Shown here: piece after piece, positions 3,001-50,178 of the stretch
Layout: the number at the start of each line of letters is the position of its first letter
Position numbering within the stretch: position 1 is the stretch's first letter
Source: Paraspadella gotoi
Lineage: Eukaryota; Animalia; Chaetognatha
Reading direction: 5' to 3'
Assembly: GCA_051294375.1 (NCBI GenBank)
Contig: CM119263.1
Coordinates: 14,338,414-14,402,413, forward strand
DNA: 64,000 bases
Made by a program: the position numbers and the translations under genes
Notes under the pieces: model-generated
Databases searched by the model: none
The model's input: the letters and a program-made list of their open reading frames with translations, nothing else
What the model was told of the DNA's origin: nothing

Positions 3001-3917
3001 GGTGAGTGGTGAGGGAAGATCAGAGCCCCAGACTTAATTCAATTAAGAGCCGGAGAGACATTAGTCCCGAGTTCCATCAGAGTTGGAAACTGTTCCAAAA
3101 CGAGATAAACGAGATGATGACATCAGTTCGTCTGACGACGACGACGACACGACGTCGAGGAAGACGACCATGAATGTTCTCCGCGCTCTTTTTTTTTTGA
3201 CGAACAGGCCTCTAATTTCGTTTAAGCGATAATAATTCTATAAGAATTGTAATTATTATTATAAATAATTAAAAGAATTACTGATTACGTATCTATTTCT
3301 AAATTTGTCTGGCTATGATACACGCTTCTCCTCAGTTTCGTCGCCTGGCAAACCAGGGCTACGTTATCCCGCCTGCGGTTGTACGCAGGCCGCGGCGAAA
3401 CGGCTTATGATTCGCTGCGTAACGGCACTTTGGAGAATTTTTTCAAACGATTTTAAAATCATTGAAATATCGTTAGTGTCCATTAAGAAGCATTTTTTCC
3501 CTCGTCCACACTCATATTCATGACTTTACGATGCTTGGCTTCTTTACAGCCATTTTCTGTTTCTGAGATGGAAAAATTCCTATTTGCGGCAGAGCACAAA
3601 TATTATTTTTTATGGCGATGCGTTGTTATGAAAGAAGTTATGTATATAGGTTATTAAATATAGCATTCGCTTGTTAGATTGTTAACAGAAAGAGATTTAG
3701 TTTTAATTCCGAAAAATCCTTTTTGTGAATCTACAGTTTAAGTTTCAAATGTTAAATTCTAAATTTGGATATCAAATTTGTACGAATTTTAACTTAATAC
3801 TTGTAATTTTTGTTCCTTTTTATGCTCCGTATTCATTTCTCCCACTTGACTGATTATCTTTCTTGGCGCTGATTTAATCTCGTTTTTCTTTGAGGAGCTT
3901 CACGAATGAAAGAGAGA

Positions 3918-4009
<92 letters not shown>

Positions 4010-4672
4010 CGGCGCGAGATAAAATCTCTGCTAATGAGACGCGAGAGACGCCGTCGACCCAGCGCGCCGTCCCTCAAACGCGCGCGTCAGCGCGAGAGAG
4101 ATGGAGCCGGCCGGCGCTGGGCGGCGCTCGCTCCGGCACTTAGCACGATGCCGCTCGCCGCGCTCTCGTTAGAAACCATTTTACGCGCCTTTTCTTCGGC
4201 GCGCGAATTTATGATGAGGCTGTTTTTCGCGGCGGCGCTAATTGACTTTGGGCAGCGCGAGTTCGAGTGACTCGAAAATGTTTCGCCTTTTCTAACGACG
4301 TCATAAAAAGATTGTTTTGTGGCGCTGCAAGCGGAGATGAGACTCGAGACGACGACGACGAATGTAATATTGTTACATAAACTAACTTGACATTATTACC
4401 ATCAAGCTTCTTTATTATTTTATGCTGATTTCCTTTCTTCGATTTCTTTTCTTTGCTCTTTCTTTATACTCTTGATGCTTTGGTATAGTTTTATTTATAT
4501 TTAAAATGGATTTGTTATTTTTCTTGCATTTCATTGGTTGAAATTTAGATGAGAAAAAGTTTTGTTTTTTGCACAACGAATTCTTATTAATATTGTTACT
4601 ACATGTTTCGAATAGCATTTCTATTCTTCATCAGTGTAAAGGCAATTTGTGAATTTGAAGTTATAAGCTCTT

Positions 4673-4765
<93 letters not shown>

Positions 4766-7430: not shown

Positions 7431-10400
7431 TGTCTTGCATAAAGAACTAAAATTAGCGCGCCAGATTTAGAATCTGGATTCGAGATCTCGTCGACGCATC
7501 TTTCAAAAAAAAAAAAAGCGACGTTTGGGCGCGCGCCGATGCGTTCGAACAAAAGGTTCCCACGCGTCAAGAGTTGGGAGAGAGATAAGCATCGTTTTTT
7601 AGAAAGAGGGGCCGTTTAGACGCTTCTGTAGGAGATTTAAAAATGACGATTACGTCTTTTTAAATAAGGATTTTTATATTAATCATATTATTATTATTAT
7701 TATTAATCATATTATCAGTTAATTATGATCAGTTGAATTTGGCCTTCCTTATTTCCTTTTGTTTTTAAAATTTTTGGGTCTGCTCTCAGGTAACAGAAGC
7801 TAGCGGATAAGATTGAAAGAAGAAATTAATCTAGGAACAGGGAGATTAAAAGTAAAAAAAAAAGTACTAAGAGAGTGGAGACTCAACCCAAAGCTGGCTC
7901 GAATCCCCCATCTCCCACCCGCGGCCTAAACGGTTGTCGATTTTCCCATTTGTCGCTCGTTTTAGTTGTTGTCGTTGTCGTCGTCCTCACGACGCGTTGA
8001 TGCGTTGAAGGAAAGAGAGAAAAGTGATTCCGTCGTCGTCGTCGTCGTCGTCGTCGTCTGAATCTTAATCTCTTTTTATTGTCGTTTGTTGGTGAACGGT
8101 CCACGTGGCCGAAGCGAATCGCCGGCGTAGCGTCGGCGGCGAGCGTGTCGGACGACGGGCGACGGGAATCAACGAAATCGAATGGCGAATGCGATTTGAC
8201 GGGAAATGGGAGAAGATGCGAGAAGGGGGGAAGTGTAGGGACCGTGGGGTGCGGGGATTTAGTGAAATAGTGGGGACGGAAACTGTGGAAGTCGTGGCGG
8301 GGGTGGGAATAGATGGAATCCTGATCAAGCAGAGATAAGAGGGATACGAGTGTGAAAAGAATAATCGTTAAAAAAAGGGGCGGGTGGAGATTTATCGCAG
8401 GGAAGTAGTGGGGACTTTTGTCGGGATAAAAGGAGATTAAGGTGTCATCTGTGGGGACGGGTGGATGACGGAGTGAAGTCCAAGGATCCGCAAGAGCGCA
8501 GCGAGCGCAAGCGTGCGGGGTGCTAACGAAAGTTCGTGTCCGATGTTTTAGTATAAACATCTTTTTCATGTCAAACGAATATGTAAAAAGTACAAAATAA
8601 TAATAATAGAGTCTCTAGAGAGTCTCTTAGAGAGAAAAGGTTTTCATTTATTCATTCGTCGTCGTCGTCGTCGTCGTCGTCGTCCTCGTCGCTCTCAATT
8701 CACATCTCATCTGTTTGCGTTTATGTGAGTCATTCATCGCCGTTTATGAACGTTGGTTGTAGAGGCAAAGGAATTGATTGGAAGATGAAACGTCTCGCCA
8801 ATACGCACGTGGCGGACAATGAAAGAACGGAGAGAGAGAGAGCGGGAGAGAAAAAGAACAAGCGCATCTTGTAATGGAACCTGAGAAGAGAGATGGATAT
8901 TCACTCAAAGAATGTGAGTAACCGACATTCAAAGAAAGAGGGAGAGCAGATTTTCTCTTTGAAGTAGACAGCGAGGCTGTAAGTTAGTAGCCAATTACGG
9001 ATAGAGGCCCATGGCGGCGACATTTCAACTTTGGCCAATGTCGACGCTGAAAGGCGTGACTCTAGGAGGCGTGGCGCGGTAATCGCGGCCCGAGACGTTC
9101 GGTCGCGCGCGCCGTTTGCGGCGGCGGAAATCGTTGCCGCCCATTCGGGAGGCGGAACGACGAAAACGCCGAGGTTAAACGCCGATATCGCGGCCTCTCT
9201 GCTGAATGAGACAGGGGGTGAGGCGCGGGGGGGATAGCATCAGACATTCGTGCGCAATGGGGCACAGATTTAAAGGATTCGGAACAAAAGCATTTGCGAG
9301 TAATGTCTTAAAGTAATTTGAGTCAGAGCTTTAGATTACTTCTTGTTTTTATTCAATTTATGAAAGGGCGAAAGACGTTCAAAATTGTAAAAGCTGCGAC
9401 AAAATAACAACATTAAACAAGATATATTGAAAATAAAACTAAAAGCGTTAGTCATACAGCATGCGACAAAAACGCCGACAATATGCAAAGAAGCGCACTC
9501 TAAATGTTGTGAACCGCTCGGATTATGGAGCTGACATCGTAAAAGGCAAAAGAGATGGAGGAAGATTGAAAAGGACGCGCTCGATGGAGTGCGCGGCGAA
9601 AAATGTGAGGCAGCCATTTATCGGGGGTCGTCGCCGAATTAACGCCTGATTACGATGCATTCAAAGGCGCGAGAGGATCGAAAAGAAGGGGGGAAGGGAG
9701 TCGGGAGATTGGGGGGTGCGGGCGGTGCGGGGAATGGGTGGATGTTAAAGAACAAATTTGGTTGGGAGGGGGAATGACCCATTATTTTGGAGAATAGACG
9801 CGATAAGGCGAGAGGGTAAAAGGGTGGCAAGGGATGCCAAGAGTTTTGAAGATGGAGCTCGGCGCAATCGATCGACCGAAACTATGAAGAGCGACGAATG
9901 CCATGGGAAGATGGGAGGGGGGATTTATGGAGAGAATCTGGACGTGAAAGATGAATAACAGGCTCGTTTCGGAGCGAAGCCGTTTGTAAGAAGGAACGAG
10001 CGAGTTATATTCTGCTGAGGGACGAAAGGCGAATGTACCTAGGGGGTATGGGAGCAAGAAATCGATGGGTAGTTGTGGTTGAAGTGTAACTCCATCTTGT
10101 GGGTCTTGGAGGTGAGGCGCGCCGCTCGGGGTCTCGGCGAATTTCAAGGGTCGATCCGTCGGAGGTTATAAGCCGCGAGTCGCTTTTATGGATCTCATAA
10201 AGATTAAAGATTAAGGGGAGGCTAATTGCTTTGCATTCAAAAAAGAAAAAAGTGAAGAGAGAGTAATTGACGAAAATTTTACCCTCGATTTTTTTTTAAG
10301 GTTAACGAAGCGCGCGACTTGATCAACGTTTTGACGATATTTTTGAGGAAAAAATTTACATTTAATTTTCTAAATTTAAGTAAATTTCGTCCATTCGTTT

Positions 10401-11679
10401 ACCCAATGAGTTCATAAGTCGTTTCAGCTATAACTAGAATATAATTAGCAATCTTTAGGATCGTGGGACGTTTAATTCACCCTATTGATCTCGCTATTTC
10501 AAATCCTATTCCGGTTTATCCGTCGCGGATCGAAAGTCGCTTAAAAGCTTCGCCCAAAACTTATCGCTTGGTCCCCCTCATCGCCTTCTCCTCCCATATG
10601 ATTTCCAAACACTTTTTCCGTGCGAGTCGATGCTCTTTCGTTTTTAGATTCATTGGTTGATTTGGCGCGAATATCCTTGTTAAAAGTGATTCGCGCTCGT
10701 AACGCAGATTGTCAGGAAAAGATCATTCTAAACTTTGGGAAAAAAAAAGAGGGCGAAGGAGGGAGAGGGTGAGTGGTGAGGGGAAGATCAGAGCCCCAGA
10801 CTTAATTCAATTAAGAGCCGGAGAGACATTAGTCCCGAGTTCCATCAGAGTTGGAAACTGTTCCAAAGACGAGATAAACGAGATGATGACATCAGTTCGT
10901 CTGACGACGACGACGACGACGACGACGTCGAGGAAGACGACCATGAATGTCCTCCACGCTCTTTTTTTTTGACGAACAGGCCTCTAATTTCGTTTAAGCG
11001 ATAATAATTCTATAAGAATTGTAATTATTATAAAATTAATAGAATTACTGATTACGTATCTATTTCTAAATTTGGTCTGCCTATGATACACGCTTCTCCT
11101 CAGTTTCGTCGCCTGGCAACCAGGGCTACGTTATCCCCGCCTGCGGTTGTACGCAGGCCGCGGCGAAACGGCGGCTTATGATTCGCTGCGTAACGGCACT
11201 TTGGAGAATTTTTTCAAACGATTTTAAAATCATTGAAATATCGTTAGTGTCCATTAAGAAGCATTTTTTCCCTCGTCCACACTCATATTCATGACTTTAC
11301 GATGCTTGGCTTCTTTACAGCCATTTTCTGTTTCTGAGATGGAAAAATTCCTATTTGCGGCAGAGCACAAATTATATTTTTTTATGGCGATGGCGTTGTT
11401 ATGAAAGAAGTTATGTATATAGGTTATTAAATATAGCATTCGCTTGTTAGATTGTTAACAGAAAGAAGATTTAGTTTTAATTCCGAAAAATCCTTTTTGT
11501 GAATCTACAGTTTAAGTTTCAAATGTTAAATTCTAAATTTGGATATCAAATTTGTACGAATTTTAACTTAATACTTGTAATTTTTGTTCCTTTTTATGCT
11601 CCGTATTCATTTCTCCCACTTGACTGATTATTCTTTCTTGCGCTTGATTATCGTTTTTTCTTTGAGGAGCTTCACGAAT

Positions 11680-11741
<62 letters not shown>

Positions 11742-12435
11742 GAGAGGGAGGGGGGGGGAGAGAGAGGAGCGGCGCGAATAAAATCTCTGCTAATGAGACG
11801 CGAGAGACGCCGTCGACCCAGCGCGCCGTCCCGTCAAAGAACGGCGCCGTCAGCGCGAGAGAGATGGAGCCGGCCGGCGCTGGGCGGCGCTCGCTCCGGC
11901 ACTTAGCACGATGCCGCTCGCCGCGCTCTCGTTAGAAACCATTTTACGCGCCTTTTCTTCGGCGCGCGGAATTTATGATGAGGCTGTTTTTCGCGGCGGC
12001 GCTAATTGACTTTGGGCAGCGCGAGTTCGAGTGACTCGAAAATGTTTCGCCTTTTCTAACGACGTCATAAAAAGATTGTTTTGTGGCGCTGCAAGCGGAG
12101 ATGAGACTCGGACGACGACGACGACGACGATGTAATATTGTTACATAAACTAACTTGACATTATTACCATCAAGCTGCTTTATTATTTTATGCTGATTTC
12201 CTTTTCTCGATTTCTTTTCTTTGCTCTTTCTTTATACTCTTGATGCTTTGGTATAGTTTTATTTTTATATTTAAAATGGATTTGTTATTTTTCTTGCATA
12301 TCATTGGTTGAAATTTATATGAGAAAAAGTTGTTGTTTTTGCACAACGAATTCTTATTAATATTGTTACTACATGTTTCGAATAGCATTTCTATTCTTCA
12401 TCAGTGTAAAGGCAATTTGTGAATTTGCAAGTTTA

Positions 12436-12531
<96 letters not shown>

Positions 12532-13025
12532 CCTCCCTTTCTCCCCGCGATTGGATTGTTTCGTTTTGACTTACTTATTAAACTCAACTTTAACATTGCT
12601 AAAACTGATGAAGAATAGAAACGCAATTCGAAACAGGTATGGAAAAATATTAATAAAATTTAGTTGTGAAAAAATCAATCTTTTCTCATTTGAATTATAT
12701 TTTTTATCTAAAACGAATTTTTAAACTTCGACGACGACGACAGTGACAACCACGACGACGTCGTCGACGATTGTGACGGCCACGTTTTTAATAAATGATA
12801 ATGACGATATATCGCCGAAGACGAAGTCATAAAAAGATTTTCCTGTGACCGACATGAATGGGGAAAATGACGACGAGGGCACTGATGAGGTTTTTTCTCT
12901 CCTTCACTACAGAGGGCCGTCCCCGTTTCTTATCGATTATGATGCACAATAAAAAAAAAAGACCATCCTTCGTTCTAATGGTTTTCGATTAGCATTAAAT
13001 TTAATTTTTTTTTAAACTTTCGCAG

Positions 13026-13146
13026 AAAATCATCTGACGAACATCGGAAAGAAACGATCCGCCGACGATGACGACGGAATTTCGGACGATGACGACGACG
13101 GCGACAACAGCGGCGACGAAAACAAACAGAATCCGTTGCAAAACAG
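13026..13146 (+). CDS. Rx: Rx exon upstream of the homeodomain (acidic linker [40 protein letters not shown])
   Basis: ttcgcag acceptor and AG|gtgaga donor; 121 nt, open and in phase with the homeodomain exon. Confidence 0.8.
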
Positions 13147-16100
13147 GTGAGAAAGGATGACACGTTCACTGTTTTGCCGCTTTTAAGAAGAACTATCGAT
13201 ATCATCAATCATCAATATCCATTTAGTTTATTGATGTTCGTTAATATTGCTTTTTTTACAGCAAAAAGAAGCACCGGCGCAACCGAACTACCTTCACTAC
13301 ATTTCAACTTCATGAGCTGGAGCGAGCATTCGAAAAATCTCACTATCCGGACGTCTACTCGCGGGAGGAATTGGCTATGGTGAGTTTCGATTGCATAGAT
13401 AAATCAGTTTAAGAAATTATTGATTGCTGTCAAGCATCTTTTTAAATATTAAGTTTTTAAACTAATTTTATGTCAATTTTCTTTCTTCATGTTTCCCGCG
13501 CAGAAAGTCAACCTGCCCGAAGTTAGAGTTCAGGTAAGCTAATGAAAGTTCTGTTATTAATGTAATAGTTAATCGTATGATATGAATGCTGGATTGATTG
13601 AAAAAAGTCTTCCTTACTGTGTGAATTTATTTTAAAATATGTACGTAATGTATTTGATATTTAGTATATTAGTTATTTTTCTCTTCTTTGACAAAATTAA
13701 CGGAAAAAAAATCTCCCTTCAAGTTTCCAATTGCACAATAATAATCCTACTGACTGAACCATAAACTCGATCAAGGGCCACCATAACTTATGGGCATAAA
13801 AGAAAGTTTCCGTGCACCGAAAACCCTCGGAAGAGAACGACTCTGCCTATTTTTACGAGCCATCCCCTTCCACCTTTCCCTACCGTCCACCCTTCCCCTT
13901 ACCTAAGCCCCACCCCAGGTTGTCATGCCCGATTTGAGTCCCAGGAGCCGACTTGGCCGTCGGGATAATAGAATGGCTTTTAATAAACCAAAGGAAATGA
14001 TGAGCGGAGGACATGAGCCGAGCGACTTGAAAGACTAGACCTCGCGTGACCGGTGGGTTGGGGCGAGGGAGAAAGGAAGGAAGAAAAGAAAAAGGAGTAG
14101 AGAAGAAAGGATAAAGGAAAAAGGAAAAAGAAAAGTTACCCAATATATGAAGATGTAGAATGAGAAATGGAGGTAAAGAGAGGTGGCTCTGAGGTAGGAA
14201 AAGAGGAAACTAAGGTGATAAAGGTAATGAGAGGAAGACTTGCTGAATTTAAACCAGTGAGGTGAAAGAAATGAGAAAATAAAAGATGACAAAAGGAGGG
14301 GAAATATTAGAGCGGGAAGGGGAGGTTGTGGGTCTGAAAAAAAGTGAAAAGGCTGAAACAGGTTATTTTGCTTAACAACAAAAATTGGTTTAAGGTTGAA
14401 AGAGATGACAATTGGTCGACGAAACATAGGTATTGGCCCCTCTTGATATATTTTTATCTTAACGAATTGCCGATGAAAATTTATATGTACCCAAAGCTAC
14501 CCAAACATCCAGTTTTGAACGGTATCTCCTGTACGTTCGTTTTCTGCTAAACATCATGACGAATGAAGATTGATGAAGGAAGAAGATGACGAATATAGAC
14601 GACGACGACGACGACCAAAATAAGACGTTCGTGTCTCATTGAGTGGGTTTTTTTTCTGTCCCTCGGGATTTTGTTAATGTGGTAATCAACCTGAAATTGG
14701 TTTTCATTTTCTTGTTATCTTGTTTTTATGATGAGTTTTGATTGAAAAGCGACGTCTTTTCCTTTTTACGAATCAAAAGTCAAATCTCTGTTTTCTGTTT
14801 CGTTTTTGTGTTTTTTTATACGCCGAGTTTTTTTTTCCCGCCAACGATTATTTAGTTTTTCGTCTTGGGTTACAAGAATGACAAAAATGGTTAAACTTCT
14901 ATGGATAATGAGTTAAATACGCAATTATTTAACTTTTTGATATTATCCGAAGATTGATGATGAAATGCTTGTTCCTGGTTCAGGCCACAAAGCTAAACAT
15001 ATTTCGTGTGAGATAGCGCTTTAAGGTTCTATTAGATTTTATCTATTGACAGAGTAGATAGTTAACGCATATTATAAATTTATAGCCTTGATTCCATTGG
15101 CTAAAGAAGTAAATATTTTTTCAAAAAAAAGAAGGAATGTTTCAATGCCATGCTGCCGAAAGTAAAACTAAGTGAGACGGTTATTACGGCAAATGAATTA
15201 AAAAAATAATCTGCCATACTATATTATCAATCTACTTTGAATGGCAAGAGGAGGGAAAATATGAGGTTTGAAAATCATTCCCTTAAAAAAACTGAATCGC
15301 GCCATTTTTCTTGTTCTGAGTCTTGACATATTTTACATGAGAGCGGTAAACTCTCACTCCGAAAAACATGAAAAAAGTCTTGCAATAATATTCATCGTTT
15401 GGCTAAAGAAAATATTGAGCAAAACGAGGGAATAGGAGGGCAGCGAAATGAAGAATGAAAAAGAAACTGGGGGAGAAAGAAAAGCCACAAAAACGGGGGA
15501 CAAAAGGAGGAAGGGGGAAACTAAAAGCACGAAAACGTTCGGTCAGAGAAAAAGGGGAAAAAAAAAGGAAAAACGTCTCTTCTTCGGTCATGATATTTTT
15601 ATGGGAACTAATGAAATGAGATTGACAATTCCGTGGGATCGACTATCTCCTTTCTATCCATGTCCAATTTCCTCTCTATCTCTGCCCCTTCTTCTGTCCC
15701 CGTTTCCCCTTTAGCTTTAGCTCGAGGGTGAAAAATGATGAACAGGGAAAAAAATAAACGATTTCGACATAAAAAAAGAGAAGCCGAATTTTCTAACTTG
15801 TCTTTTTTCCATTGTCTATCAAAGCTGCCAATTAGAAAATCTAACCTCGAAAATATCGATCGAGTCTTTTAAGTTTGTTTTCTTCTCATTATCCCCGCTG
15901 GTTAAATATTTTTTTTACATCTTTATTAATATTATTAATATAATTTTCGACCGAACTAAAAAAAACAAAAAAAAACGAGTCGGGCGGCCGAAATTTAATT
16001 ACGTCTTCTTTCAATCCTCATCTGTGTCTCTCGGCCAGGATGTAATATAATGATTGCATGTGAAAGCCTGTGTTTGCTTCGTTCCTCCCATTCTTCATCT

Positions 16101-18573
16101 TCTTCTTTCTTTATATTCTTCTTCTTCTTTCCTCTTCTTTCTCGTCTACTTCTCCCCGAGTATCGACGCAACCGCCATCTCTCGGAATGATTTTCAATCA
16201 TTTTTCCCGGGACCCGAAGCTTTCGAAATATATCAATCATGGCAATAAGAAACACAGCGAGAGGAGAGAAAAGACACGAGAGATGAGAGAGGAGAGAGAG
16301 AGAGAGAGAGAGAGACGAGAGAGAGAGGAGAGAGCGGAAGGGTACGGAAGGTATTTTTCAGAAAAAGATCAAAACACAGTATCAGTAGGTTCTATCAACG
16401 CATAAAACATTAACTTCCGATGGGCGTGGACCAATTGGCGTCGAGAACTTACTTTACGTAGCTAAGCTAAAAACCGAGTCAGACGTTCGACGTCAAAAAA
16501 AGGTAATTCATAACCGAAGATCGATAAAAGGCTTCGTCAGATTTTGACCGAGTTAAAAATCGCACCTCCCCATGTCGCCACTCTCGCCGATCGCCACTCA
16601 GACCACACCGTCCACTCTCGCTAGCCAGGGACCTTCTTCTTCGCTTCCCAGTCTCGAGGGACATTTCAGCGGCGTTCCGATCCCACGCCGCCTGACCTGA
16701 GACCCTGGACCGCACCCTGCCAATATATTCGCTCGTATTCTCTTCATTCCCTTTCCTTTTCTTCCTCCCTCGTCTTCCTCCCCCCCCACTTTTCTTCCCC
16801 CTCTTCCTCCCTTCTCTTCCTCCCTTCTCTCTCCGCCGAAAATCTAATCAAAGGATAATGAAATATCTGCCTGGCCAAAGATTGAGGAGGACAGAATGAT
16901 TTGGGAGCGGAGGAGTCCGAGAGAGAAGGGACTCGAATGAAAGATGGATGGCGCGAGTGTGTTTTTCGTTGTTGTTGTTTGTGGAACTTGCTTATGATTC
17001 TTATGATTCGGGAAATTTTAGGAATTTCTGTAGCCTGTAATTTTTAGAGGTTGAGCCCAATTTATGGGATGAAGTTTGAACCGAATTGTTTGAATTGAAT
17101 TGAATTGAACTGAATTGAATTGAACTGAATGAAATTAAATTGCGTTTGAAATATTTAATTGAAATGCAAAGACTAGTCGCTAACATGTTTTTAATGAAAT
17201 CTAATAATATTGAATAGTGACAATAATATTGAATAGTGTCGATCTAACCGACTCTCGGGTAATGAATAACGGCATTCTCTCCTCTATTCTTGCGCAGGTT
17301 TGGTTCCAAAATCGTCGCGCGAAATGGCGTCGCCAGGAAAAGATGGCCAATCAGAAACTGAGCTCTGGGGGAGGCAGCGGTGGCGGCGCCCCGAATCAAA
17401 TTGGAGAGCCAATCGGAGAGCTGGGCTCTTTGGGTGGTGGCCCGCCGCCGCACTTGAGATCCTTGGGAAACGGCCTCGTTCCGACGAGCATTTCGGTAAG
17501 TCAAAAACTCATTAATCTTTAAAGAATAATTACTCCTATCCCATAACTAAAATCCTAAAAAAAGTTAACTAATTTCATCAAGAATGTAATGATTAGTTTG
17601 TCCTTTCCAGAACTTTGCCGCGAATTCTTTGGCGGGACAAATTTCAATGGACCACTGGCTTTCTAGCGCCACTGCCGCCGCAGCCGCTGCAGCCGCTGCT
17701 GGAACGCCCCTCGCTGCGACGTCGCCCTCCCCGGCCTCAATACAGGTTAGTTATTAATTACAGTTTGATATGAAAGAACAAATTATACGGTGTTATATCT
17801 TTTATATCAATTTAACGATCATTTTCTTAACCCATATTTAGGGCCTCCATGCCGCCGCTGCCGCGGCCGCCGCAGCCGCCGTTCACATGCACGCTGCCAC
17901 TTTTCCGGGGCTCCTCCATCACCCACCTCCTCCCCCTCCGCCTCATCATCCTCATCATCCCTCGACTTACCCGTCCTACCTGCACGCTCCGCCCCTCGCC
18001 AACATGCTTCACCCTGGCGCCGGCGTTCCAGGACTGCCGCCCGTTCCTCCGGCGTCTCTCTGCTCGCCGCTGGTCCATCTCGGCCGCCTGTCGCCATTGC
18101 AAGCGGCATCGGCCGCAGCCGCCGCCGCTGCGACGCTGCACCCTCGTCATCCCACGACGCCGCCGCTTCGCTCGACGCCGCCGCATCACCTAACCACGCC
18201 TCCTCTTCACGCGGCGACACCGCCGGCGCATCCGCCGCTACCCTTACCCGCCCCGGCGTCTTCGGCGTCATCTCCGTCCGCGATTTCGCCGCCGCTGCGG
18301 TCACCCGTCATTCGCGACGCCGGAGCGGTCGTTCCGTCGACCTCTTCCTTGTCTACTCACCACCGCCACCATCCATCTCTCCCCCCGCACCACCCCGCCT
18401 CTCCCGTCGCTTCCCCCGCGGCGTCGCCCGCCAGATCGGACGAACCGGAAGTGAGAGGCGCCGCCGCCGTCCTCGCTGCGCCCTTTGACGTCAAATCCAC
18501 GAGCATCTCGGCGCTGAGACTCAGAGCGAGGGAGCATCTGGCCACGCTGACGGGGCACGGGTGGGGCCGGTGA
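13026..18573 (+). CDS. Rx: Retinal homeobox (Rx/Rax) paired-like Q50 homeodomain transcription factor with OAR motif; exons 13026-13146, 13262-13379, 13504-13533, 17298-17495, 17611-17745, 17842-18573; 5'-partial
   Basis: Spliced translation gives [39 protein letters not shown]|[10 protein letters not shown]|[15 protein letters not shown], essentially the Rx homeodomain. An Rx-domain-like MDHWL and a C-terminal OAR ([15 protein letters not shown]) follow. All introns are GT-AG with consistent phases. Start exon and octapeptide not located. Confidence 0.95.
13262..13379 (+). CDS. Rx: Rx homeodomain exon, basic lead-in plus residues 1-36
   Basis: tttacag acceptor, ATG|gtgagt donor; encodes [39 protein letters not shown]. 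Confidence 0.95.
13504..13533 (+). CDS. Rx: Rx 30-nt homeodomain microexon, residues 37-46 ([10 protein letters not shown])
   Basis: cgcag acceptor, CAG|gtaagc donor; fills the homeodomain gap exactly. The 46/47 intron is the canonical PRD-class position. Confidence 0.95.
17298..17495 (+). CDS. Rx: Rx exon with recognition helix [15 protein letters not shown] and Gly-rich linker
   Basis: gcgcag acceptor, TCG|gtaagt donor, 198 nt. Confidence 0.95.
17611..17745 (+). CDS. Rx: Rx exon with MDHWL (Rx-domain-like) motif and poly-Ala
   Basis: tttccag acceptor, CAG|gttagt donor, 135 nt, open in phase 0. Confidence 0.85.
17842..18573 (+). CDS. Rx: Rx last coding exon, Pro/His/Ala-rich, with OAR motif
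   Basis: tttag acceptor in frame with ORF 17887-18573, which ends ...[26 protein letters not shown]. Confidence 0.93.
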   Translation, partial: GLHAAAAAAAAAAVHMHAATFPGLLHHPPPPPPPHHPHHPSTYPSYLHAPPLANMLHPGAGVPGLPPVPPASLCSPLVHLGRLSPLQAASAAAAAAATLHPRHPTTPPLRSTPPHHLTTPPLHAATPPAHPPLPLPAPASSASSPSAISPPLRSPVIRDAGAVVPSTSSLSTHHRHHPSLPPHHPASPVASPAASPARSDEPEVRGAAAVLAAPFDVKSTSISALRLRAREHLATLTGHGWGR

Positions 18574-40390: not shown

Positions 40391-40432
<42 letters not shown>

Positions 40433-40758
40433 CTCTCTCTCTCTCTCATCTTCTCTCTCCTCTCTCTCTCTCTCTCTCAGTCTTCAGTCGGCCATCGATT
40501 TGGTCCGCCCACCGAAGCGATGACGTCGACTCAGACGACGCCGTCTCCGACTCGAATAGACGGGACTCTGTTCTTGCGGCGCCGAGCGCTGCTACTCGCC
40601 CGAGTCCTCCCCAGCGTCTTACGGCGTCTTGCCCTCGGCGCCATCGACGGCCGATGTCGACGCACTCTGGCGCTAAACTATCGCACGTCGCTCAGAGAGA
40701 CGATGAAAGGACTCTGCTTGAAGATCGAACGCCTCGCCGACCGCCTCGACGACACAAA

Positions 40759-41226
40759 ATGCGCATGCGTGATCGAGTTTCTTTCCTGGAGGTCTTCGTC
40801 ATCGTCAGTCGTCGACGAACAAATTCATAGTCACTTTCCTCTGCCTCGCCTCCCTCTCCACTTTCGCGAGCATCCTTCACCCTCAACAGCCCCTTCTACA
40901 GCAAGTTTGCGACGGAAACAGCAACAGCAGCCGCGACGCCGGCGGCGGCGGCGGCGGCGAGCTTGACAATTTTCGTGGACAAAAACCTCATCTTCGACGG
41001 ATTCGTGGAAAATCCCCTCCAAACTTTTCGTCGATATCGACGACGACAACAACAAAACAACGATGGAAAAAGCGCAACAACGAGTTCGAGGATAAAGAGA
41101 CGATGCGGCAAACGACGACGACGACGACGATGACGACGACGACTTCCGGTTTGGCGTCCGAGTCAGAAATCCCTCTCGGCGAATTAGAACAAAAGCGCAA
41201 AATCGTTCAAGAGGCAAACGGGAGGA
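40759..41226 (+). pseudogene. Copy A of the same exon with many 1-nt indels
   Basis: Colinear with 50179-50641; frame broken by indels typical of read error. Confidence 0.6.
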
Positions 41227-44067
41227 GTGAGCCCGAAGGGGGCGGCAGGGGGGGGTGATATCAGGGAGGTAAATGACGGGGAGGAAGAAGAAATTGATTG
41301 GTAAATGAACGAGTTGAGGAAGAGGATTGAATTTGAATATTGTAACGATGAGCCTGAAAATAAACCAAAACAAAAGTCGCCGAAAAAAAACAAAAGATTT
41401 ATGAATCATGAAAAAAGGAAAGAGTTTTATATTCGGCGTTGGAGGAGTTAGGGTTCCATAAACTCGTTCCTCGATTAAATAATCAGAATCAGTTTTACGG
41501 AAGAAGAAGCGAAGGGGAGACTGGAAAGGCGAGAAGACTGTTTCCGGGTTTATACCTTACTCTTTTACGGGGGGGGGACTGGGGGCGCACACTGTTACCT
41601 GATGACGGAAAATATCCGGGCCAACTTATCACAGCTACGATCTCATAGATTTTCGTAAAGTTGGTTGAATTTAAAGTTCTGAGCCGAGATATCTGACCTT
41701 AGCTATTTGGTTTGTTGTCATGGTGATTTTTGTTTACAAGTTGTCATTTTCGACATAAATTGATTTTTTACTAACTTTTTTTTCGACATGGCGGACTTTA
41801 ACCTTAGGTAAAATAGTTATTTTGAAAAAATATTTACTTCTTTCCACGATTTATCAGAAGCTCTTTTCATAGGGTTTCTGCTGACATGCTTCTTTCAATG
41901 ATTTAAAGTCGACATACTGGAATACAGTGGCATGCAGATGACAGCATCATTTTCTCAGTACTTTCTTTCCTTTAAGTTCCAAATTTTCATCTTTAAGGTC
42001 CTGGGTTAACTAGGGTTAAACGAAATTGAACCTTGGATGGTATTTAATAGTCAGGAGTATTTCCCATTTATTACCCCTGTTGCGGTTTTTTTGCGGTTTT
42101 TCCATTTAAGAAAGAAATAGGCCTCACCAGTTGACTAGTTCATGCAAATTAAGATAAAGTTAAATTCATTTTAATTATATTTGACTAAAATAAATAACCT
42201 CAACCTTCAGTGATTTAAATAAATATATAAGGATTTAAAAGATATATTTTTAAGCTTTTCATCGATTTATTATTTTTCAAAAAAAATTGTTTTTCTTCTA
42301 TGAGAACCAAAATTATTTATCCTAGGAGGTCAAGATCAAATTAAATTGTTGAAATATTGAAACTGCATTTGAACATCTCGGTTTCCTAGGGTTCTAGTAG
42401 TAACGCATTTAAATGTACTTTAATAGTCAATTTTCATATTCGTCTTACTATGTTAAAGCAGATTCCTTCGGTTTAAATATCAAAGAGATATAAGATAAAC
42501 AAACAGTAATCTTCGAAATTTTTATTTTCTATATAAATTAACTATAAAAAAAGGATGAAAATCAACTTGCCGGACAAATCAATTAAAATAGTTGGTGATC
42601 AATAAAATATCAGGAATTATGCGGCAAATGTCATAAGCAACTAATATCAGATTAGTCATAGATCATTTGCTTAAGAAACTAACAACGGGAACAACAGTAA
42701 CAACGACAAATATGCAGTGTAACGTTCATATTCAATACAAAAAGAAATTTTAAGTGAAATATATTGTTAATATTATTAATTTACTCTTGTTTTTTACTGA
42801 CGACAAACATGTTTCTCTGTCCATCTGTCAAAATGTCTGATAATCTTTAAAAATTGATTTTATTGTGAAGTCTCACATTTTTTTGTTTGTACCTTCACGC
42901 TGAGGTCGCCAAATGACCTAATACTTACTTTTTTGCTTTACTTCAGTCAGTATGTACCTCTCTCTCTCAATCTCTCTCTCTCTCTATATATATATATTAT
43001 ATATACAATATACATATAGAAAGAAAGAAGGGAGAAAGTGAGAGAGAATGAGATATATATATATATCTCTCGCTCTCTTTCTCTGTCTGTATCTGTCAGT
43101 CTCTCTTTCTAACTCAACATCTTCTCCCGCTCTTTGCCTCTCTCTCACACTCTCTCCCTCTCTATCTGTAGAGAAGCTTGGCTCTCTACGCCTCTTGAGG
43201 TGAGGATGGTCCACTTGGTCGCAACTTATCTGACGAAAAGTATCCAAACGTTTCTGTAAACTGAAGCTCAAAAGTCGAAAAAGAAGAAATGCGGGAATAA
43301 ATGTAAATAAATGTAATAAATGTAGACAAATCCGTAGAGAAAATCGAGATCAAATCGAGATGAATCAATAAATCGTAGAGGAATCCAATAAATCGTAGAA
43401 GAATCTTCAGTAAAAACGTAGTAGAAAACTTTGTAAGAAAGTAGTTGACAGTCTAGAGTGATCCAGTGAATCTAATCTGTCTTGTTGTCTTGTCCAAGTA
43501 AAGTTTGGAGAGAGAGAGAGAAAAAGAGAGAGAGGGAGAGAAGAGTGGAGAAAGAGTCCGGTCAGTCTCTGTCCGGTCGATCGTCAATCGGTCGAATGGG
43601 TCAGATCTGGCCGTCTCCGTCGGTCTCGGCCTTTTCTCTTCACTATCTCTCTTTCTATCTGTCTCTCTCTCTCTCCGGAATGAATTTGGCGGTGATGTTG
43701 GCACTGCTTCGTTGTGTATTGTTATTTAAAAGCATTACTAAACCAATTTTGTTTGGTTATTAGTTTATTTGTTTATTAGTTTATTTATCTTTAGTTAATT
43801 TTCAATTTCAAGTTTACTTAACTTATCTATCCTTGTTGTACATTTAAAAATGTCATGTTTCTCTCTTCTCTCTCTCTCTCTCCTCTCACTTTCACAATTT
43901 CAAAAAAACAACTTACTTCCCTTTTTCCCTGTCCTTATCTTCACCGTCCTTACATCTGACCACTGTCCTTCTCTCAATTCTTTGTTGGAAACTCTCTCTC
44001 TCTCTCTCTCTTTCTCTCTCTATCTCTATCTCACCATCTTATGTCTGTGAAAGTTGTCCCAAAACAA

Positions 44068-44125
44068 GCGCTGATGAGTGCTGAAGACTCAAAAATGTAA
44101 GAGACGAAACATTTCCGTCACTGAA
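44068..44125 (+). ncRNA. Degenerate hammerhead-like motif; duplicate at 53492-53549
   Basis: AGUG-CUGAAGA-CUC...GAG ac-GAAA-cauuucc-GUC-ACU followed by AATAAA; register off by one nucleotide. Confidence 0.35.
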
Positions 44126-44225
44126 TGTATAATAAAATCGTTGTGATTAAACTTCTTTCATTGTGTTTGAGTTATTTGAGATTAAAGACGAAGTCTTATT
44201 ACGTCAACGATTTTATTTTAATGGT

Positions 44226-44262
44226 ACAGACTTTCGGCTTTCATTCAAGCTTTCATCAGTGC
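44226..44262 (-). ncRNA. Minimal hammerhead-ribozyme-like motif (Penelope type); duplicate at 53650-53686
   Basis: Minus strand reads GCA-CUGAUGA-aaGCUU gaauga AAGCc-GAAA-GUC-UGU: conserved core, stem II and short stem I. Confidence 0.5.
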
Positions 44263-44301
44263 TTTGACAATTCACAATTTCATGTTATCTAAATTGACTT
44301 T

Positions 44302-44337
<36 letters not shown>

Positions 44338-44396
44338 AATGGCCAACAAAGAAGTGAGACAGGGCAGTGGTGAAATGTGAGGACAGGTTTAAGTTG

Positions 44397-44432
<36 letters not shown>

Positions 44433-44876
44433 AAGCAGAGGTTAACATTTTTGGAAGTACCATTAAAATAAAGTCATTGATGTAATAAGACTTGGTCTTT
44501 AATCTCAAATAATAAATCCTTGTCAACCATTAAAAACTTTCGTTTTCAAACTCCGCTACATTTATATTCAACTAAAAACCATTAACGGTTATAATTCTCA
44601 TTTGCATATTGTAGTGAGAGATTTTAAAATAAAAAAATAAGAAAAACAAACAAAAAAGAAACAAATATTTAAAGAAAAGTTAATACAACTTATATAAATG
44701 AAAACTATAATATTATATTACAGCATAAATCCCTTTTTTTTTAATTTTTAAAAAAATATTTTAATAGATATGAACTTAGGAATTGAGAATATTAAAGTTT
44801 TTAGTCATTATTAAAGTCAAACGGATTTCTGGAGGGGGTGGGATGTTGGCTCAATTACATCTATTAAAAAAAAAGG

Positions 44877-46414
44877 AGTCGTTCTGGCTCGATAGCAAGG
44901 CCTGTGATATTTTTCCGTCATCCACCCTACTAAGCTCATATATGTAGTCGTTTGGCCGATAGCGAGCCCTGTGATATTTCCGTCATCCACCTACTAAGCT
45001 CAATAGTGTAGTCGTTCTGGCTCGATAGCGAGGCCTGTGATATTTTCCGTCATCCACCCTACTAAGCTCATTAGTGTTAGTCGTTCTGGCTCGATAGCGA
45101 GGCCCTGTGATATTTTCCGTCATCCACCTACTAAGCTCATATATGTAGTCGTTCTGGCTCGATAGCGAGGCCCTGTGATATTTTCCGTCATCCACCCTAC
45201 TAAGCTCATATTTAGTGTAGTCGTTCTGGCTCGATAGCGAGGCCCTGTGATATTTTCCGTCATCCACCCTACTAAGCTCATATAGTGTAGTCGTTCATGG
45301 CTCGATAGCGAAGGCCCTGTGATATTTTCCGTCATCCACCCTACTAAGCTCATATAGTGTAGTCGTTCTGGCTCGATAGCGAGGCCCTGTGATATTTTCC
45401 GTCATCCACCCTACTAAGCTCATATAGTGTAAGTCGTTCTGGCTCGATAGCGAGGCCCTGTGATATTTTCCGTCATCCACCCTACTAAGCTCATATAGTG
45501 TAGTCGTTCTGGCTCGATAGCGAGGCCCTGTGATTATTTTCCGTCATCCACCCTACTAAGCTCATATAGTGTAGTCGTTCTGGCTCGATAGCGAGGCCCT
45601 GTGATATTTTTCCGTCATCCACCTACTAAGCTCATATAGTGTAGTCGTTCTGGCTCGATAGCGAGCCCTGTGATATTTTCCGTCATCCACCCTACTAAGC
45701 TCATATAGTGTAGTCGTTCTGGCTCGATTAGCGAGGCCCTGTGATATTTTTCCGTCATCCACCCTACTAAGCTCATATAGTGTAGTCGTCTGGCTCGATA
45801 GCGAGGCCCTGTGATATTTTCCCGTCATCCACCCTACTAAGCTCATATAGTGTAGTCGTTCTGGCTCGATAGCGAGGCCCTGTGATATTTTCCGTCATCC
45901 CACCCTACTAAGCTCATTATAGTGTAGTCGTCTGGCTCCGAATAGCCGAGGCCCTGTGATATTTTCCGTCATCCACCCTACTAGCTCATATAGTGTAGTC
46001 GTTCTGGCTCGATTAGCGAGGCCCTGTGATTTTTTTCCGTCATCCACCCTACTAAAGCTCATATAGTGTAGTCGTTCTGGCCGATAGCGAGGCCCTGTGA
46101 TATTTTTTCCGTCATCCACCTACTAAGCTCATATAGTGTAGTCGTTTCGGCTCGATAGCGAGGCCTGTGATATTTTCCGTCATCCACCCTACTAAGCCAT
46201 ATAGTGTAGTCGTTCTGGCTCGATAGCGAGGCCCTGTGATATTTTCCGTCATCCACCTACTAAAAGCTCATATAGTGTAGTCGTTCTGGCTCGAAGCGGG
46301 CCCTGTGATATTTTCCGTCATCCACCCTACTAAGCTCATATAGTGTAGTCGTTCTGGCTCGATAGCGAGGCCCTGTGATATTTTCCGTCATCCACCCTCT
46401 AAGCTCATATAGTG
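44877..46414. repeat. 70-bp tandem array, ~22 copies, equal to the amplified right end of the transposon
   Basis: Unit gtagtcgttctggctcgatagcgaggccctgtgatattttccgtcatccaccctactaagctcatatagt; no spacers; variation mostly 1-nt indels. Confidence 0.97.
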
Positions 46415-47104
46415 GGCGGGGAGTGCAGGGACGATAAGGGGTTAGAATAGACTTTTTTTGCCTAGAGTTGTCGGCGGTGGTTCGAAAACCTTGAGTTGAA
46501 TTTAGACTCGAAAAGAAGTTAATAAGAATGAATGAAAGACGAATCCAGATGAAGAAGGTGATAAGACGTTGCCCTTTTTTTTTTTTGCCTTTCAACTGTT
46601 TGGCCTTCGACACGCGTCGGGCAGGGAGCGTGAGCTTTTTTTATTCTGATTAGTGTTAAATATTTTATAATTTACAGGGTTCGGAATCAAAACTTATAAA
46701 ATTGTATTATATTTACAAATAAACGCATATGTCCTAAACCGTTTAAAGTTTTTCCTTTGATCGAGATTGTGACAGTAAATTAAGGACATATTAGGAATAA
46801 CAAGTGTGAAAACAAAATAATGTTTATTAGGAGAGGAGGAGAAATCATATAAAAACTGAAAGTCATACCAATGCACGTAGATGTTAACTTTGAAAAAAAT
46901 TATAAAAAATAAAAAAATATTGCGCTAAAAAACATCTGAAAACAATAAAGGAAAAAACATATGTTCTTAGAGGAAAAAAACTGCAGCCAATCTATAAGAT
47001 CGGACAACAACGCATAACTGAAAACGGAAGGAGGGAGATAGAACAACCAGATGGAGATCCGAGATAAAAGATGCCCGGTTTTAAGGATTCTATCAGCAAT
47101 CCTA

Positions 47105-47199
<95 letters not shown>

Positions 47200-47908
47200 T
47201 AAAGAAACAAAAAGTGATAAATGAGGAAAAGATAAAAGAGGAAGCGTCCATAGCGAAGGGAAAAATAAGATAGAGAGATAAGGGAAAAAAAGGAAATGGG
47301 AGGGAAGCCAAAAAGGAAGGTCTGACTTTTTTTTTTTCATTCATTATCCCATTTTTTTTCTATCATGAAACTGAACAACTTTTTATTTCTGAAACGAAAA
47401 CTCTCAGCGGCGGCGGGGAGTTGATAATCCGCGCGCCTTTTAACCCTTAATCCTTTACCCTTAATTTCGATCCTTTCCAACAAAGAGACTTTCACTTCCC
47501 TTGTCAAAAAAATGGCGAGAGGCGGCGAAGCTTTGGTCCAAACGCTCAGTTTAAGCCTCGAGAGTTTTGTCAAGATTTTTTAATCGCTTTTCTCGAGATT
47601 CATCTTCATTCTTCAAATCTCCAAATTTATCGGTGAAGTTGAAAAAGGTCGACGTCTATTCCCTTTTCGATCTCTAACGAGGCATGTTTCCTTTCACATC
47701 AATCGCTTTCACTTATCTCCAGGGACTATCACTCCAAAATGCCATCATCGGACAATATTTGATATATATCGACTTCACCTAAAAACGATTTTATTCGACG
47801 CTCCGATGTTTATTATTTTGCGAGGAAACTAATCATTTTTAATCACAGAATCTGCCATGGTTGATTAAAAGTTTAAAATGAAGAGCGACTATTTTTTTCA
47901 CGCCTTTA

Positions 47909-47985
<77 letters not shown>

Positions 47986-48249
47986 TTCTCCGTCGGCTCG
48001 TGGCTCGTGGCTCGTTTTCTATCAGCCGATAGAGTTTCACTTTTCATTCTTTTCTTCTCATCTTAAATTTCTTGACCTTTGACACTCGAGGTGTAACTCA
48101 ACGACCGGTTTCGTCCTCGTTCTCTTCGGCCTTTTCCTCTTCCTTCCTTCCTACTGGCCAGTGGACACCCGACCCTTCGACTGACCTACCCATATCCCAG
48201 TCCTCCATCATCCAGTAAGTTTACTTTCTCACACTAATCCCCAAATTTT

Positions 48250-48615
48250 ATCCCATCTCAATTTTTATTAACATCTTATCCTTATTCCAAAACATTCCCT
48301 TCCCATCTCAATCCCGATTCCCATCTCAATCCCTGTTTGCAATCTTAATAGCAATTCCCTCTTAATCCCTATTCCAATCTTAATCTCTATTCCCATATTA
48401 ATCCCTATTCCCTCCTCAATCACAATTCACTAATCACTAATAACTATTCCCATTCAATACGTATTCCCATCTCAATCCATAATCTAATCTCAATCCCTAT
48501 TCCCATCTCAATCCCTTTCCCATCTTATCACTATTTCCATCTCTATTCCTCTTCCAATCTCAATCCATATTCTAATCTTAATCCTATTCCCATATCAATA
48601 ATCTCTCCAATCTAA
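48250..48615. repeat. Degenerate hexamer-based minisatellite (ccctattcccatctcaat-like, ~18 bp); second copy at ~59270-59655
   Basis: Repeated aatccc/tattcc/catctc units. Confidence 0.8.
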
Positions 48616-50178
48616 ACCTTCTGAAACCCTTTCTCCTTTTCCGCATCATCGTCTCTCTCTCCCACCCTGCCCCTACTTCCCCCCCCCACAGTCCCCACCC
48701 TGCGTTCCAATCAAAACAAACGGCCTCTACATGGGATCGGAATTTTCTTTCGGCTCGCCCGGGAGGTCAGGAGGAGGGGGGGGCAAGAAATCGGGGTGGG
48801 CGGGTAGGGGCATCGTGTGCCCAGGCGGGCGTTGATTGGGCCGAAACGGGGTAAGTTTATCGGAGAAATGGGGATAAGGATTGAGTGGGGTCGAGTCCGC
48901 GGCGAATCAAACGAGGGCAAATTATGCAGAAGCCGCGTTGCTGCGACTCGTCGAGGCGAAAGTCAAGCCGAATTACGGAATTGAAACAGTAGCCGAGAGA
49001 GCCAAAGGATCAGCCCGAGATATCGATGTAGATGGCGACCGCGAAACAAAAGGGAAACGGGAATCAATGGTATGAATATATAAAAGAAAAAGATTGTCGG
49101 CAAAGTCGTGCTTCTCATCTCGGCAAAATATTCGCGCGAAGTCGTAAACATCGAAAAATTAGAAAGAAAAATATTTTTTACTCCTCCGTATTTTATTTTA
49201 TGTTTTTTTTTTTTTTTTTTTTTGACGACCGGTAAAAGGGGAGGAAAGAAGAAGCCCCGCAAAGTTTTGTTGTTTTTTATTTTCTGTTTCTCTCACTAAA
49301 TGACAAAAGCGGGAGAGAGAATTTATGCTTTTAACGTGTTTTTAAAAGCGTTCGTCGAGTTAAAAAACCTCAATTTAAACGTCGATTCGATAAAGATTCG
49401 GACGACGGAAACCTGAGAATCTTTTTTTCTTGAGATGTATATTTATATTTAATTTTTTTAATTGGAAAAGAATTTGTTGGTTTCTCTTGTTTGTTAAGCG
49501 ACTCCGTCATAAATTAGGAACGGGTGTTGCTGTCTCCACTGTGGTCTTTAGATTTACAGCACCGTAAAAAAACATTGAAAGAATTTGCAAAAGAAATGTA
49601 AGATTTGAAAGGTTGAAACAAAAATTTTGACACACCCATCCGGGGAATGGACCGGAATAATCCATGGAGGTTGTAAAAAAATACGATCGAACAGGGGAAA
49701 GTCTTTTACCGGTTTATTCAGAAATGAAATTAGTTTATTGATTTAGAATTTACGTAGAATTTTAACCATCAACACTTTGACAATGACATTTTTCCCGGGA
49801 CTGGCTGTTGGCTATGCTTGGTCTGTCTTCGTTCTGGTAGTCTGTTAGGCGCTGGGTCTCTTTTTTTAGTCGTCTCTCACAACAGGTATACCAGTCAGTC
49901 TTCAGTCGGCCATCGATTTGGTCGCGCCACCGGAAGCGATGACGTCGACTCAGACGACGCCGCCTCCGACTCGAATGACGGGACTCTGTTCTTGCGGCGC
50001 CGAGCGCTGCTACTCCCCGAAGTTCCTCGCCCAGCGTCTTACGGCGTCTTGCCCTCGGCGCCATCGGACGCCGATGTCGACGCACTCTGGCGCTAAACTA
50101 TCGCACGTCGCTCAGAGAGACGATGAAAGGACTCTGCTTGAAGATCGAACGCCTCGCCGACCGCCTCGACGACACAAA

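What the first reader, a model, noticed from the sequence alone, without database searches (positions are those of the whole stretch)
41588..46414. CAC...GTG transposon with 12/23-RSS-like asymmetric ends (Transib/Chapaev/RAG-like lineage)
Seen: left end CACACTG-TTACCT-GATGACGGAAAATATC-cgggcc; right end (reverse complement) CACTATA-TGAGCTTAG(T)AGGGTG-GATGACGGAAAATATC-acagggcc. The identical 16-bp block starts 13 nt from the left tip and 22-23 nt from the right tip, about one helical turn apart. Measured from the heptamer to the A-rich GGAAAATAT, the spacers are 12 and 21-22 nt. The target is GC-rich with a GGCG duplication. Established: V(D)J RSSs are CACAGTG plus a 12 or 23 spacer plus an A-rich nonamer; Transib and ProtoRAG ends begin CAC (often CACTATG) with 5-bp GC-rich TSDs; Chapaev has CAC/GTG ends with 4-bp TSDs; helical-turn asymmetry has been noted for some Transibs. 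Inference: a non-autonomous member of a RAG1-related family whose transposase may need a 12/23-like end pair. The TSD reads 4 bp, but one G-run error would make it 5.
Basis: partly seen in the sequence, partly recalled or inferred. Interest (0 to 1): 0.88.

Follow-up and report, generated by a model that had tools for sequence, protein, structure and literature searches.

The report
Transib-like transposon with 22 stacked ends
This is a young, multicopy 4.8-kb cut-and-paste transposon of an invertebrate animal, likely of the RAG-related Transib kind; its unequal 12/22-spaced ends are a pattern known since 2005, but its right end is stacked 22 times in tandem, which would offer the transposase many alternative places to cut.

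Summary
The ends are real. Short-read contigs of four runs show a multicopy, homogeneous family with both tips where stated. This site is empty in at least one run and in a third copy of the locus in the window, so it is a recent insertion with a GGCG duplication (4 bp as read; 5 bp not excluded). The 29/39 geometry matches mosquito TransibN2_AG, so 12/23-like Transib ends are known, not new. No transposase was found, so the superfamily rests on the ends alone; Chapaev is the rival. I found no such array described for Transib. Likely the transposase can pair the single short-spaced end with any stacked long-spaced end. A variant end 7 nt shorter argues against strict spacing. The second copy (51012-55838) is an assembly duplicate.

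The parts
41588..46414 (+). Non-autonomous DNA transposon copy, 4827 bp
   Evidence: family contigs begin at 41587-41588 in 3 of 4 runs; many flanks behind the right tip
41588..41616 (+). Left end: heptamer CACACTG (41588-41594), 12-nt spacer, nonamer-like GGAAAATAT (41607-41615); shared block 41601-41616 = nt 14-29
46377..46414 (-). Outermost right end: heptamer CACTATA (46414-46408), 22-nt spacer (21 as read, one base lost), shared block 46392-46377 = nt 24-39 after correction
   Evidence: (table 4)
44877..46414 (-). Tandem array, 22 units of 70 bp; each unit is the terminal 69 bp of the right end plus one junction base; 16 of 22 read with an intact tip
   Evidence: junction seen in short-read contigs of 4 of 4 runs (tables 5, 5c, 7)
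41584..41587 (+). Left target-site duplication GGCG (5 bp if one G was lost at the right junction)
46415..46418 (+). Right target-site duplication GGCG
41617..44876 (.). Non-coding AT-rich body (33% GC) with microsatellites; no transposase remnant found
42074..42550 (.). Probable nested piece of another, more abundant repeat
   Evidence: depth peaks, loose ends and joint 42118->42514 in 3 of 4 runs
51012..55838 (+). Second copy, byte-identical including read errors: assembly duplicate of the same insertion, not an independent copy
57393..57396 (+). Empty site: single GGCG in a third copy of the host segment
   Evidence: empty form also in run X2

Best explanation
A recently inserted, multicopy, non-coding DNA transposon with one short-spaced and 22 stacked long-spaced RSS-like ends, likely moved in trans by a Transib-type transposase that likely pairs the left end with any one of the stacked right ends. 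Shown: tips, 10-nt asymmetry, duplication of a GC-rich target, filled and empty alleles, many homogeneous copies, and a family-wide tip-bearing array. Inferred: the enzyme is a Transib (RAG1-core-like DDE) transposase encoded elsewhere; it binds the CAC tip and the inner block, with one helical turn of asymmetry as in TransibN2_AG; it cuts by nick-hairpin as HzTransib does. Because every unit ends in a full tip, a cut at an inner unit would move a shorter element and leave the outer units at the donor site, giving variable array length and orphan arrays. The array likely began as one duplication of the terminal 69-70 bp (self-insertion into its own right end, or slippage at an AGT microhomology) and grew by unequal exchange.
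For: Geometry: the block ends at nt 29/39 here; by my hand count on the Fig. S4 text, TransibN2_AG is 29/39 and TransibN1_AG 29/40. The paper's conserved positions (CAC at 1-3, A at 34-35 of the long end) are met, and A at 24-25 on the short end. Heptamers are 6/7 to CACAATG (left) and to the CACTATG of Hopper, TransibN1_DM and TransibN1_DP (right). Target 75% GC, as described for Transib. Mobility: body/flank depth 11-37 in 4 of 4 runs (not a copy number); a single 962-nt contig from 41588 in X2 and 519-nt contigs from 41587 in X4 and X7; empty site in the window and, by inference from two 221-nt records of depth 2.44 that abut at letters 86/87, in X2. Array: junction contigs in 4 of 4 runs and tip/body depth 24-166. 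Inner-tip cutting: one X2 contig joins a GC-rich stretch to a unit lacking its first 4 nt, and units have long unrelated sequence on the inner side in all 4 runs (table 7). TSD length varies within Transib and RAG.
Against: The TSD reads 4 bp in both assembled copies; canonical Transib gives 5 and HzTransib invariably 5, while Chapaev gives 3-4. Three-base runs in the array lose a base in 5 of 22 and 3 of 22 units, so a lost G is possible but less likely than not. No transposase was found. The two tips share only CAC and T6, whereas the mosquito families share about 10 terminal bases. One X2 contig (depth 15.6 against 2.44 for the flank) carries a right end with the block 7 nt closer to the tip (table 7; tip cut off in the 30 letters shown), against strict spacing. 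The unrelated inner-side sequences may be bodies of other families sharing this end, not excision scars; most rows are mixed consensuses. Neither RAG1 alone nor HzTransib alone prefers a 12/23 pair.
Confidence: 0.62

Rival explanations
1. Same element, but moved by a Chapaev (CMC) transposase that makes 4-bp duplications; the end asymmetry is shared ancestry or convergence within the CMC-Transib clade.
For: TSD reads 4 bp in both copies and fits the empty site without correction; Chapaev hallmarks are CAC..GTG tips and 3-4-bp TSDs; the whole clade has CA..TG ends and 2-5-bp TSDs.
Against: The 29/39 geometry and A34-A35 match described Transib ends. The Chapaev3 subgroup uses TWA targets, unlike this GC-rich site. 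I found no description of one-turn asymmetry in Chapaev in the passages read; Repbase entries were not available.
Confidence: 0.22
2. Transib-type element, but the array is passive: only the outermost tip is cut and array length changes by slippage or unequal exchange alone, as in other TIR-derived satellites.
For: TIR-derived tandem repeats are a known class (Tetris TIR-220, Xstir, pvB370). The element has kept 22 units here and tip/body depth is 24 or more in all 4 runs, which frequent inner cutting would erode. Junction bases vary (T mostly; A, AT and probably C), as point mutation would give.
Against: Inner tips are sequence-identical to the outer one (16 of 22 intact as read), so nothing in the sequence shields them; one scar-like junction exists.
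Confidence: 0.35
3. Non-autonomous derivative of a RAGL (RAG1-RAG2) transposon with asymmetric ends.
For: PflRAGL-A ends have a heptamer, a nonamer-like block and a 10-bp asymmetry; other RAGL ends are asymmetric.
Against: RAGL ends keep a conserved A-rich TR2 of 9-10 bp next to the heptamer on both ends; here those bases differ between ends. RAGL TSDs are 5 bp. No RAG1L or RAG2L remnant.
Confidence: 0.06
4. The array, the asymmetry or the element is an artefact of a noisy long-read assembly.
For: The assembly holds false-looking tandem duplications (1-6881 against 7728-14623, and the three copies of this locus) and a byte-identical second copy.
Against: Independent short-read contigs show both tips, both spacings, the tandem junction and the depth jump. 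Only the number 22 and the second copy depend on the assembly.
Confidence: 0.03

Closest known systems
Transib families with RSS12/RSS23-like ends: Transib5, Transib2_AG, TransibN1_AG, N2_AG, N3_AG (PMC1131882)
   Same: CAC tips, inner shared block ending at nt 29 (short end) and 39-40 (long end), short end on the left, GC-rich target, non-autonomous copies
   Different: There 5-bp TSDs and about 10 shared terminal bases; here 4 bp as read and only CAC shared. No tandem array of the end is mentioned in the passages read ('tandem' 0 hits in the main text).
Chapaev (CMC) transposons (PMC4079192)
   Same: CAC..GTG tips, 3-4-bp TSD
   Different: Chapaev3 uses TWA targets; no one-turn asymmetry found in the passages read
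V(D)J recombination signals and RAGL-A ends (10.1101/2023.08.20.553239)
   Same: Heptamer, length-asymmetric spacer and A-rich block; several long-spaced signals facing one short-spaced signal
   Different: Heptamers are CACACTG and CACTATA, the block includes 6 conserved bases before the nonamer, no TR2, no RAG genes, no evidence of programmed rearrangement
TIR-derived satellites: Tetris TIR-220, Xstir from Xmix, pvB370 from pDv (PMC9659126, PMC12628747, PMC6947457)
   Same: Tandem repeat built from the end region of a DNA transposon and carried by it
   Different: Here the unit is the complete end including the cleavable tip, on one side only; whether those units include the tip was not stated in the passages read

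Membership tests
Transib | Transib-clade DDE transposase (own or partner's) | not testable with these tools
   No genome held; 38 translated frames of the element and its left junction gave no Pfam match above cut-off
Transib | CAC at positions 1-3 and a CACAATG/CACTATG-like heptamer on both ends | tested here: met
   CACACTG and CACTATA, each 6/7 to a published heptamer
Transib | A at positions 34-35 of the long end (RSS nonamer positions 5-6) | tested here: met
   Long end has A32-A35, short end A22-A25; weak alone in AT-rich DNA
Transib (asymmetric families) | Ends differing by one helical turn, RSS12-like left and RSS23-like right | tested here: met
   29/39 here; 29/39 and 29/40 in TransibN2_AG and N1_AG by hand count
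Transib | 5-bp TSD | tested here: inconclusive
   4 bp as read at one site; a G-run loss would give 5, and such losses occur in 3-5 of 22 units; TSD length is reported as labile in Transib
Transib | GC-rich target | tested here: met
   75% GC at this one site; flanks behind other right tips are partly mixed consensuses
Chapaev | CAC..GTG tips and 3-4-bp TSD | tested here: met
   As read; one site only
Chapaev | Chapaev transposase | not testable with these tools
Chapaev3 | TWA TSD | tested here: not met
   Target is GGCG (definition)
RAGL | Conserved TR2 next to the heptamer on both ends; RAG1L and RAG2L genes | tested here: not met
   Bases 8-13 differ between ends; no coding remnant; definition
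EnSpm/CACTA | Matching CACTA/G tips and 2-3-bp TSD (partly recalled) | tested here: not met
   Left tip is CACAC; the duplication is at least 4 bp by the empty site

The most novel reading that the evidence does not exclude
A RAG2-less Transib family whose transposase enforces a 12/23-like rule and picks one of about 22 stacked long-spaced ends to pair with its single short-spaced end. This would be a natural one-of-many signal choice like an antigen-receptor locus; the rule would protect the array from cutting itself, and each jump from an inner tip would seed an orphan minisatellite at the donor site.
Probability: 0.2. Interest if true: 0.72.

Novelty: new variant of a known kind. Interest (0 to 1): 0.42.

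Why it matters
Whether any Transib transposase enforces unequal end pairing on its own bears on where the 12/23 rule came from. In the papers read, HzTransib ends lack a nonamer and RAG1 alone ignores the rule. A young polymorphic family with unequal ends is a candidate for that test once its transposase is found. The stacked ends add an in-genome read-out (array length, orphan arrays, scars) and a direct route from a transposon end to a dispersed minisatellite. Without the transposase it remains one more Transib-like family with an odd end.

Tried and rejected
Whole-genome search: no genome held, so no copy table and no tblastn for a partner. Transposase remnants: 61 frames of 30 aa or more were listed; 38 of them, plus 12 host frames, were scanned against Pfam with nothing relevant. 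Rfam: 0 matches. Relatives by DNA pattern: 0 in metagenome and viral contigs with the 21-base pattern. The looser pattern gave 126 loci, all inspected at the match: none shows either end beyond the pattern itself, distances are spread from 12 to 24, and a repeated cluster at distance 14 stays similar beyond the CAC, so it is not a terminus. Idea that the 70-bp unit equals the full TIR homology: the two ends align to nt 69, but the inner part is not significant (3843 of 20000 shuffles, 3308 of 20000 random 32-mers), rejected. Treating 51012-55838 as a second insertion: rejected, same site and byte-identical. Reading a C..G target preference from loose ends: rejected, the consensuses are mixed with the tandem junction. 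Helitron/Helentron: rejected on the duplicated target and CAC..GTG tips (defining features recalled). Earlier scan notes: none for this genome, none by words, one unrelated archaeal hit sharing 2 of 30 words. Host: an animal (homeodomain and OAR motif); named relatives of a dehydrogenase are only 36-42% identical, arthropods ranking first, so the lineage is not fixed. Literature searches for an array of whole Transib ends (listings, then passages of three reviews) found none; Repbase and Dfam were not available, so absence from print is not established. Figure 4C of PMC1131882 was seen only as its legend; bioRxiv supplements were not seen and may bear on TSD and TIR variety.
Full report
Observation. 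The ends are in the sequence as stated: CACACTG at 41588, the reverse complement of CACTATA at 46414, and GGCG on both sides. The 16-bp block is exact on both ends; a common run that long arose in 3 of 5000 random pairs of 45-mers. The assembly is noisy: the array units differ from their majority by 48 indels and 27 mismatched cells in 1540, many of the latter from misalignment. The outermost unit lacks one A that short-read contigs of all four runs laid restore. The block therefore lies at nt 14-29 (left) and 24-39 (right): spacers of 12 and 22 to GGAAAATAT, offset 10.

The right end is the last of 22 tandem 70-bp units, 44877-46414. Each unit is the terminal 69 bp plus one base; the base is T at 17 of the 19 junctions that could be read (TT and TA once each), and the innermost unit is preceded by G; 16 of 22 units read with an intact tip. 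The window holds the host segment three times. The copy at 51012-55838 is byte-identical over 4827 bases, errors included, while 500 bases of left flank differ by 2 mismatches and 44 gap positions in an end-to-end alignment: an assembly duplicate of one insertion. The third segment is empty, with a single GGCG at 57393-57396.

Independent data. No genome is held. Eight public runs of one organism from two studies hold the stretch; I laid 4 of the 8, all as contigs. Summed depth rises 11-37-fold from flank to element body (the tool warns this is no copy number; X4's flank value is from the left flank only). Long single contigs start at the left tip in X2, X4 and X7, so the family is homogeneous and its left boundary is right. 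Left-flank contigs in X1, X2 and X7 stop matching at 41587 and run on. In X2 a 221-nt record of depth 2.44 matches the left flank to letter 86 and a record of the same length and depth matches the right flank from letter 87; I infer one contig, the empty allele. X4 has no cover of the right flank. No listed contig bridges flank and element at this site, but both tables are cut. The tandem junction appears in all four runs, and depth at the tip is 24-166 times that of the body (overlapping contigs inflate this). The array is thus a family trait and probably shared with other families: several different multi-copy inner sequences abut the unit (table 8).

TSD. Four bases fit both filled copies and the empty site without correction. 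Five bases need one G lost from a four-G run in both copies, which may share one source at the junction. Three-base runs in the array lose a base in 5 of 22 and 3 of 22 units, a four-T run in 1 of 22. Four is favoured several-fold but five is open, and this is one site.

Coding. No transposase remnant: 38 of the 61 frames listed were scanned against Pfam without a match above cut-off; Rfam gave nothing. The element is non-autonomous. Pattern scans found no relatives. The host is an animal, lineage not fixed.

Comparison with what is known. PMC1131882 (passages, legend of Fig. 4, part 1 and passages of Fig. S4) defines Transib ends as a CACAATG-like heptamer and an A-rich nonamer, with 5-bp GC-rich TSDs, and names five families with RSS12/RSS23-like ends. 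By hand count the shared block ends at 29/39 in TransibN2_AG and 29/40 in TransibN1_AG, as here. PMC9435367 (passages) says all Subgroup I and some Subgroup II Transibs have asymmetric ends; PMC8355894 (passages) reviews the same; 10.1101/2023.08.20.553239 (passages) reports a 10-bp asymmetry with TR2 in RAGL-A. So the headline feature is known. 10.64898/2026.08.26.747230 (abstract, sections 14 and 20) reports 2-, 3- and 5-bp TSDs within Transib and warns that ends should not override transposase homology, which cuts both ways here. PMC4079192 and PMC3014272 (passages) give Chapaev CAC..GTG tips with 3-4-bp TSDs, TWA for Chapaev3; PMC12730594 (passages) gives 2-5 bp for the wider clade; PMC3630058 (one passage) added nothing. 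PMC4840297 (passages) shows nick-hairpin cleavage and 5-bp TSDs for HzTransib, little nonamer likeness in its ends, and no 12/23 preference without RAG2. Reviews of transposon-derived satellites (PMC9659126, PMC12628747, PMC6947457; passages) list TIR-derived arrays but none from Transib; four searches found no array of whole Transib ends. Repbase and Dfam could not be checked.

Mechanism. Shown: a mobile, young, polymorphic element with unequal ends and a tip-bearing array. Inferred: a Transib-type transposase made elsewhere binds tip and inner block, pairs the short-spaced left end with a long-spaced right end, cuts and inserts into GC-rich DNA (about 0.62; Chapaev about 0.22). Since inner tips equal the outer one, the enzyme could cut at any unit, moving a shorter element and leaving the rest behind (about even odds given the first step). 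For: one X2 contig joins GC-rich DNA to a unit missing 4 nt. Against: long arrays persist, and other inner-side sequences may simply be other families. Whether unequal pairing is required is untested; one X2 contig at about six times flank depth has the block 7 nt nearer the tip, though its tip is not fully shown and it may be a passive relic. The inner part of the unit shows no significant likeness to the left end.

Verdict. Observation confirmed with a one-base correction; interpretation partly supported; the 12/23-like ends are a known Transib pattern. The unreported feature is the stack of complete ends. It works like an asymmetric Transib; membership is probable but unproven without the transposase and a TSD table. 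New variant of a known kind, interest 0.42.

Noticed in passing
window 1-6881 and 7728-14623; 40392-49803, 49895-56164, 56204-60844: Large tandem near-duplicates differing mostly by indels (89-99% identity): probably haplotypes or reads stitched in series. Copy counts in this assembly should be distrusted.
   Followed up: partly
window 42639-42680: In run X2 an 89-nt contig (depth 15.6) leaves the body here and continues into a variant right end whose block is 7 nt nearer the tip: possibly a short derivative of about 1.1 kb.
   Followed up: no
window 42074-42550: Both edges have much higher depth and many loose ends, and a more abundant form skips 42119-42513 with 32 other letters: a nested or shared small repeat.
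   Followed up: no
window 44172-44227 and 44457-44512: 56-nt inverted repeat, 93% complementary, 229 nt apart, with CT and GA microsatellites nearby: possible nested MITE or foldback.
   Followed up: no
window 46346-46414: Tip variants in short reads read CACTGTA and CACTGTG, closer to the V(D)J heptamer; junction bases between units vary (T, A, AT, probably C).
   Followed up: no
window 17214-18573: End of a homeodomain and an OAR motif: aristaless/Arx-type gene (family name recalled).
   Followed up: partly
window 28739-29329: Short-chain dehydrogenase, retinol-dehydrogenase-like exons.
   Followed up: partly
window 40773-41258 (also about 50219-50673, 56638-57078): Frameshift-ridden frame without Pfam match ending about 330 bp before the insertion; the element may sit just downstream of an unknown gene.
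   Followed up: no
L006, L007, L032, L041, L044, L051, L066, L068, L072, L073, L074, L090: A diverged repeat family that contains the 16-bp block by chance; not a terminus, unrelated to this element.
   Followed up: partly
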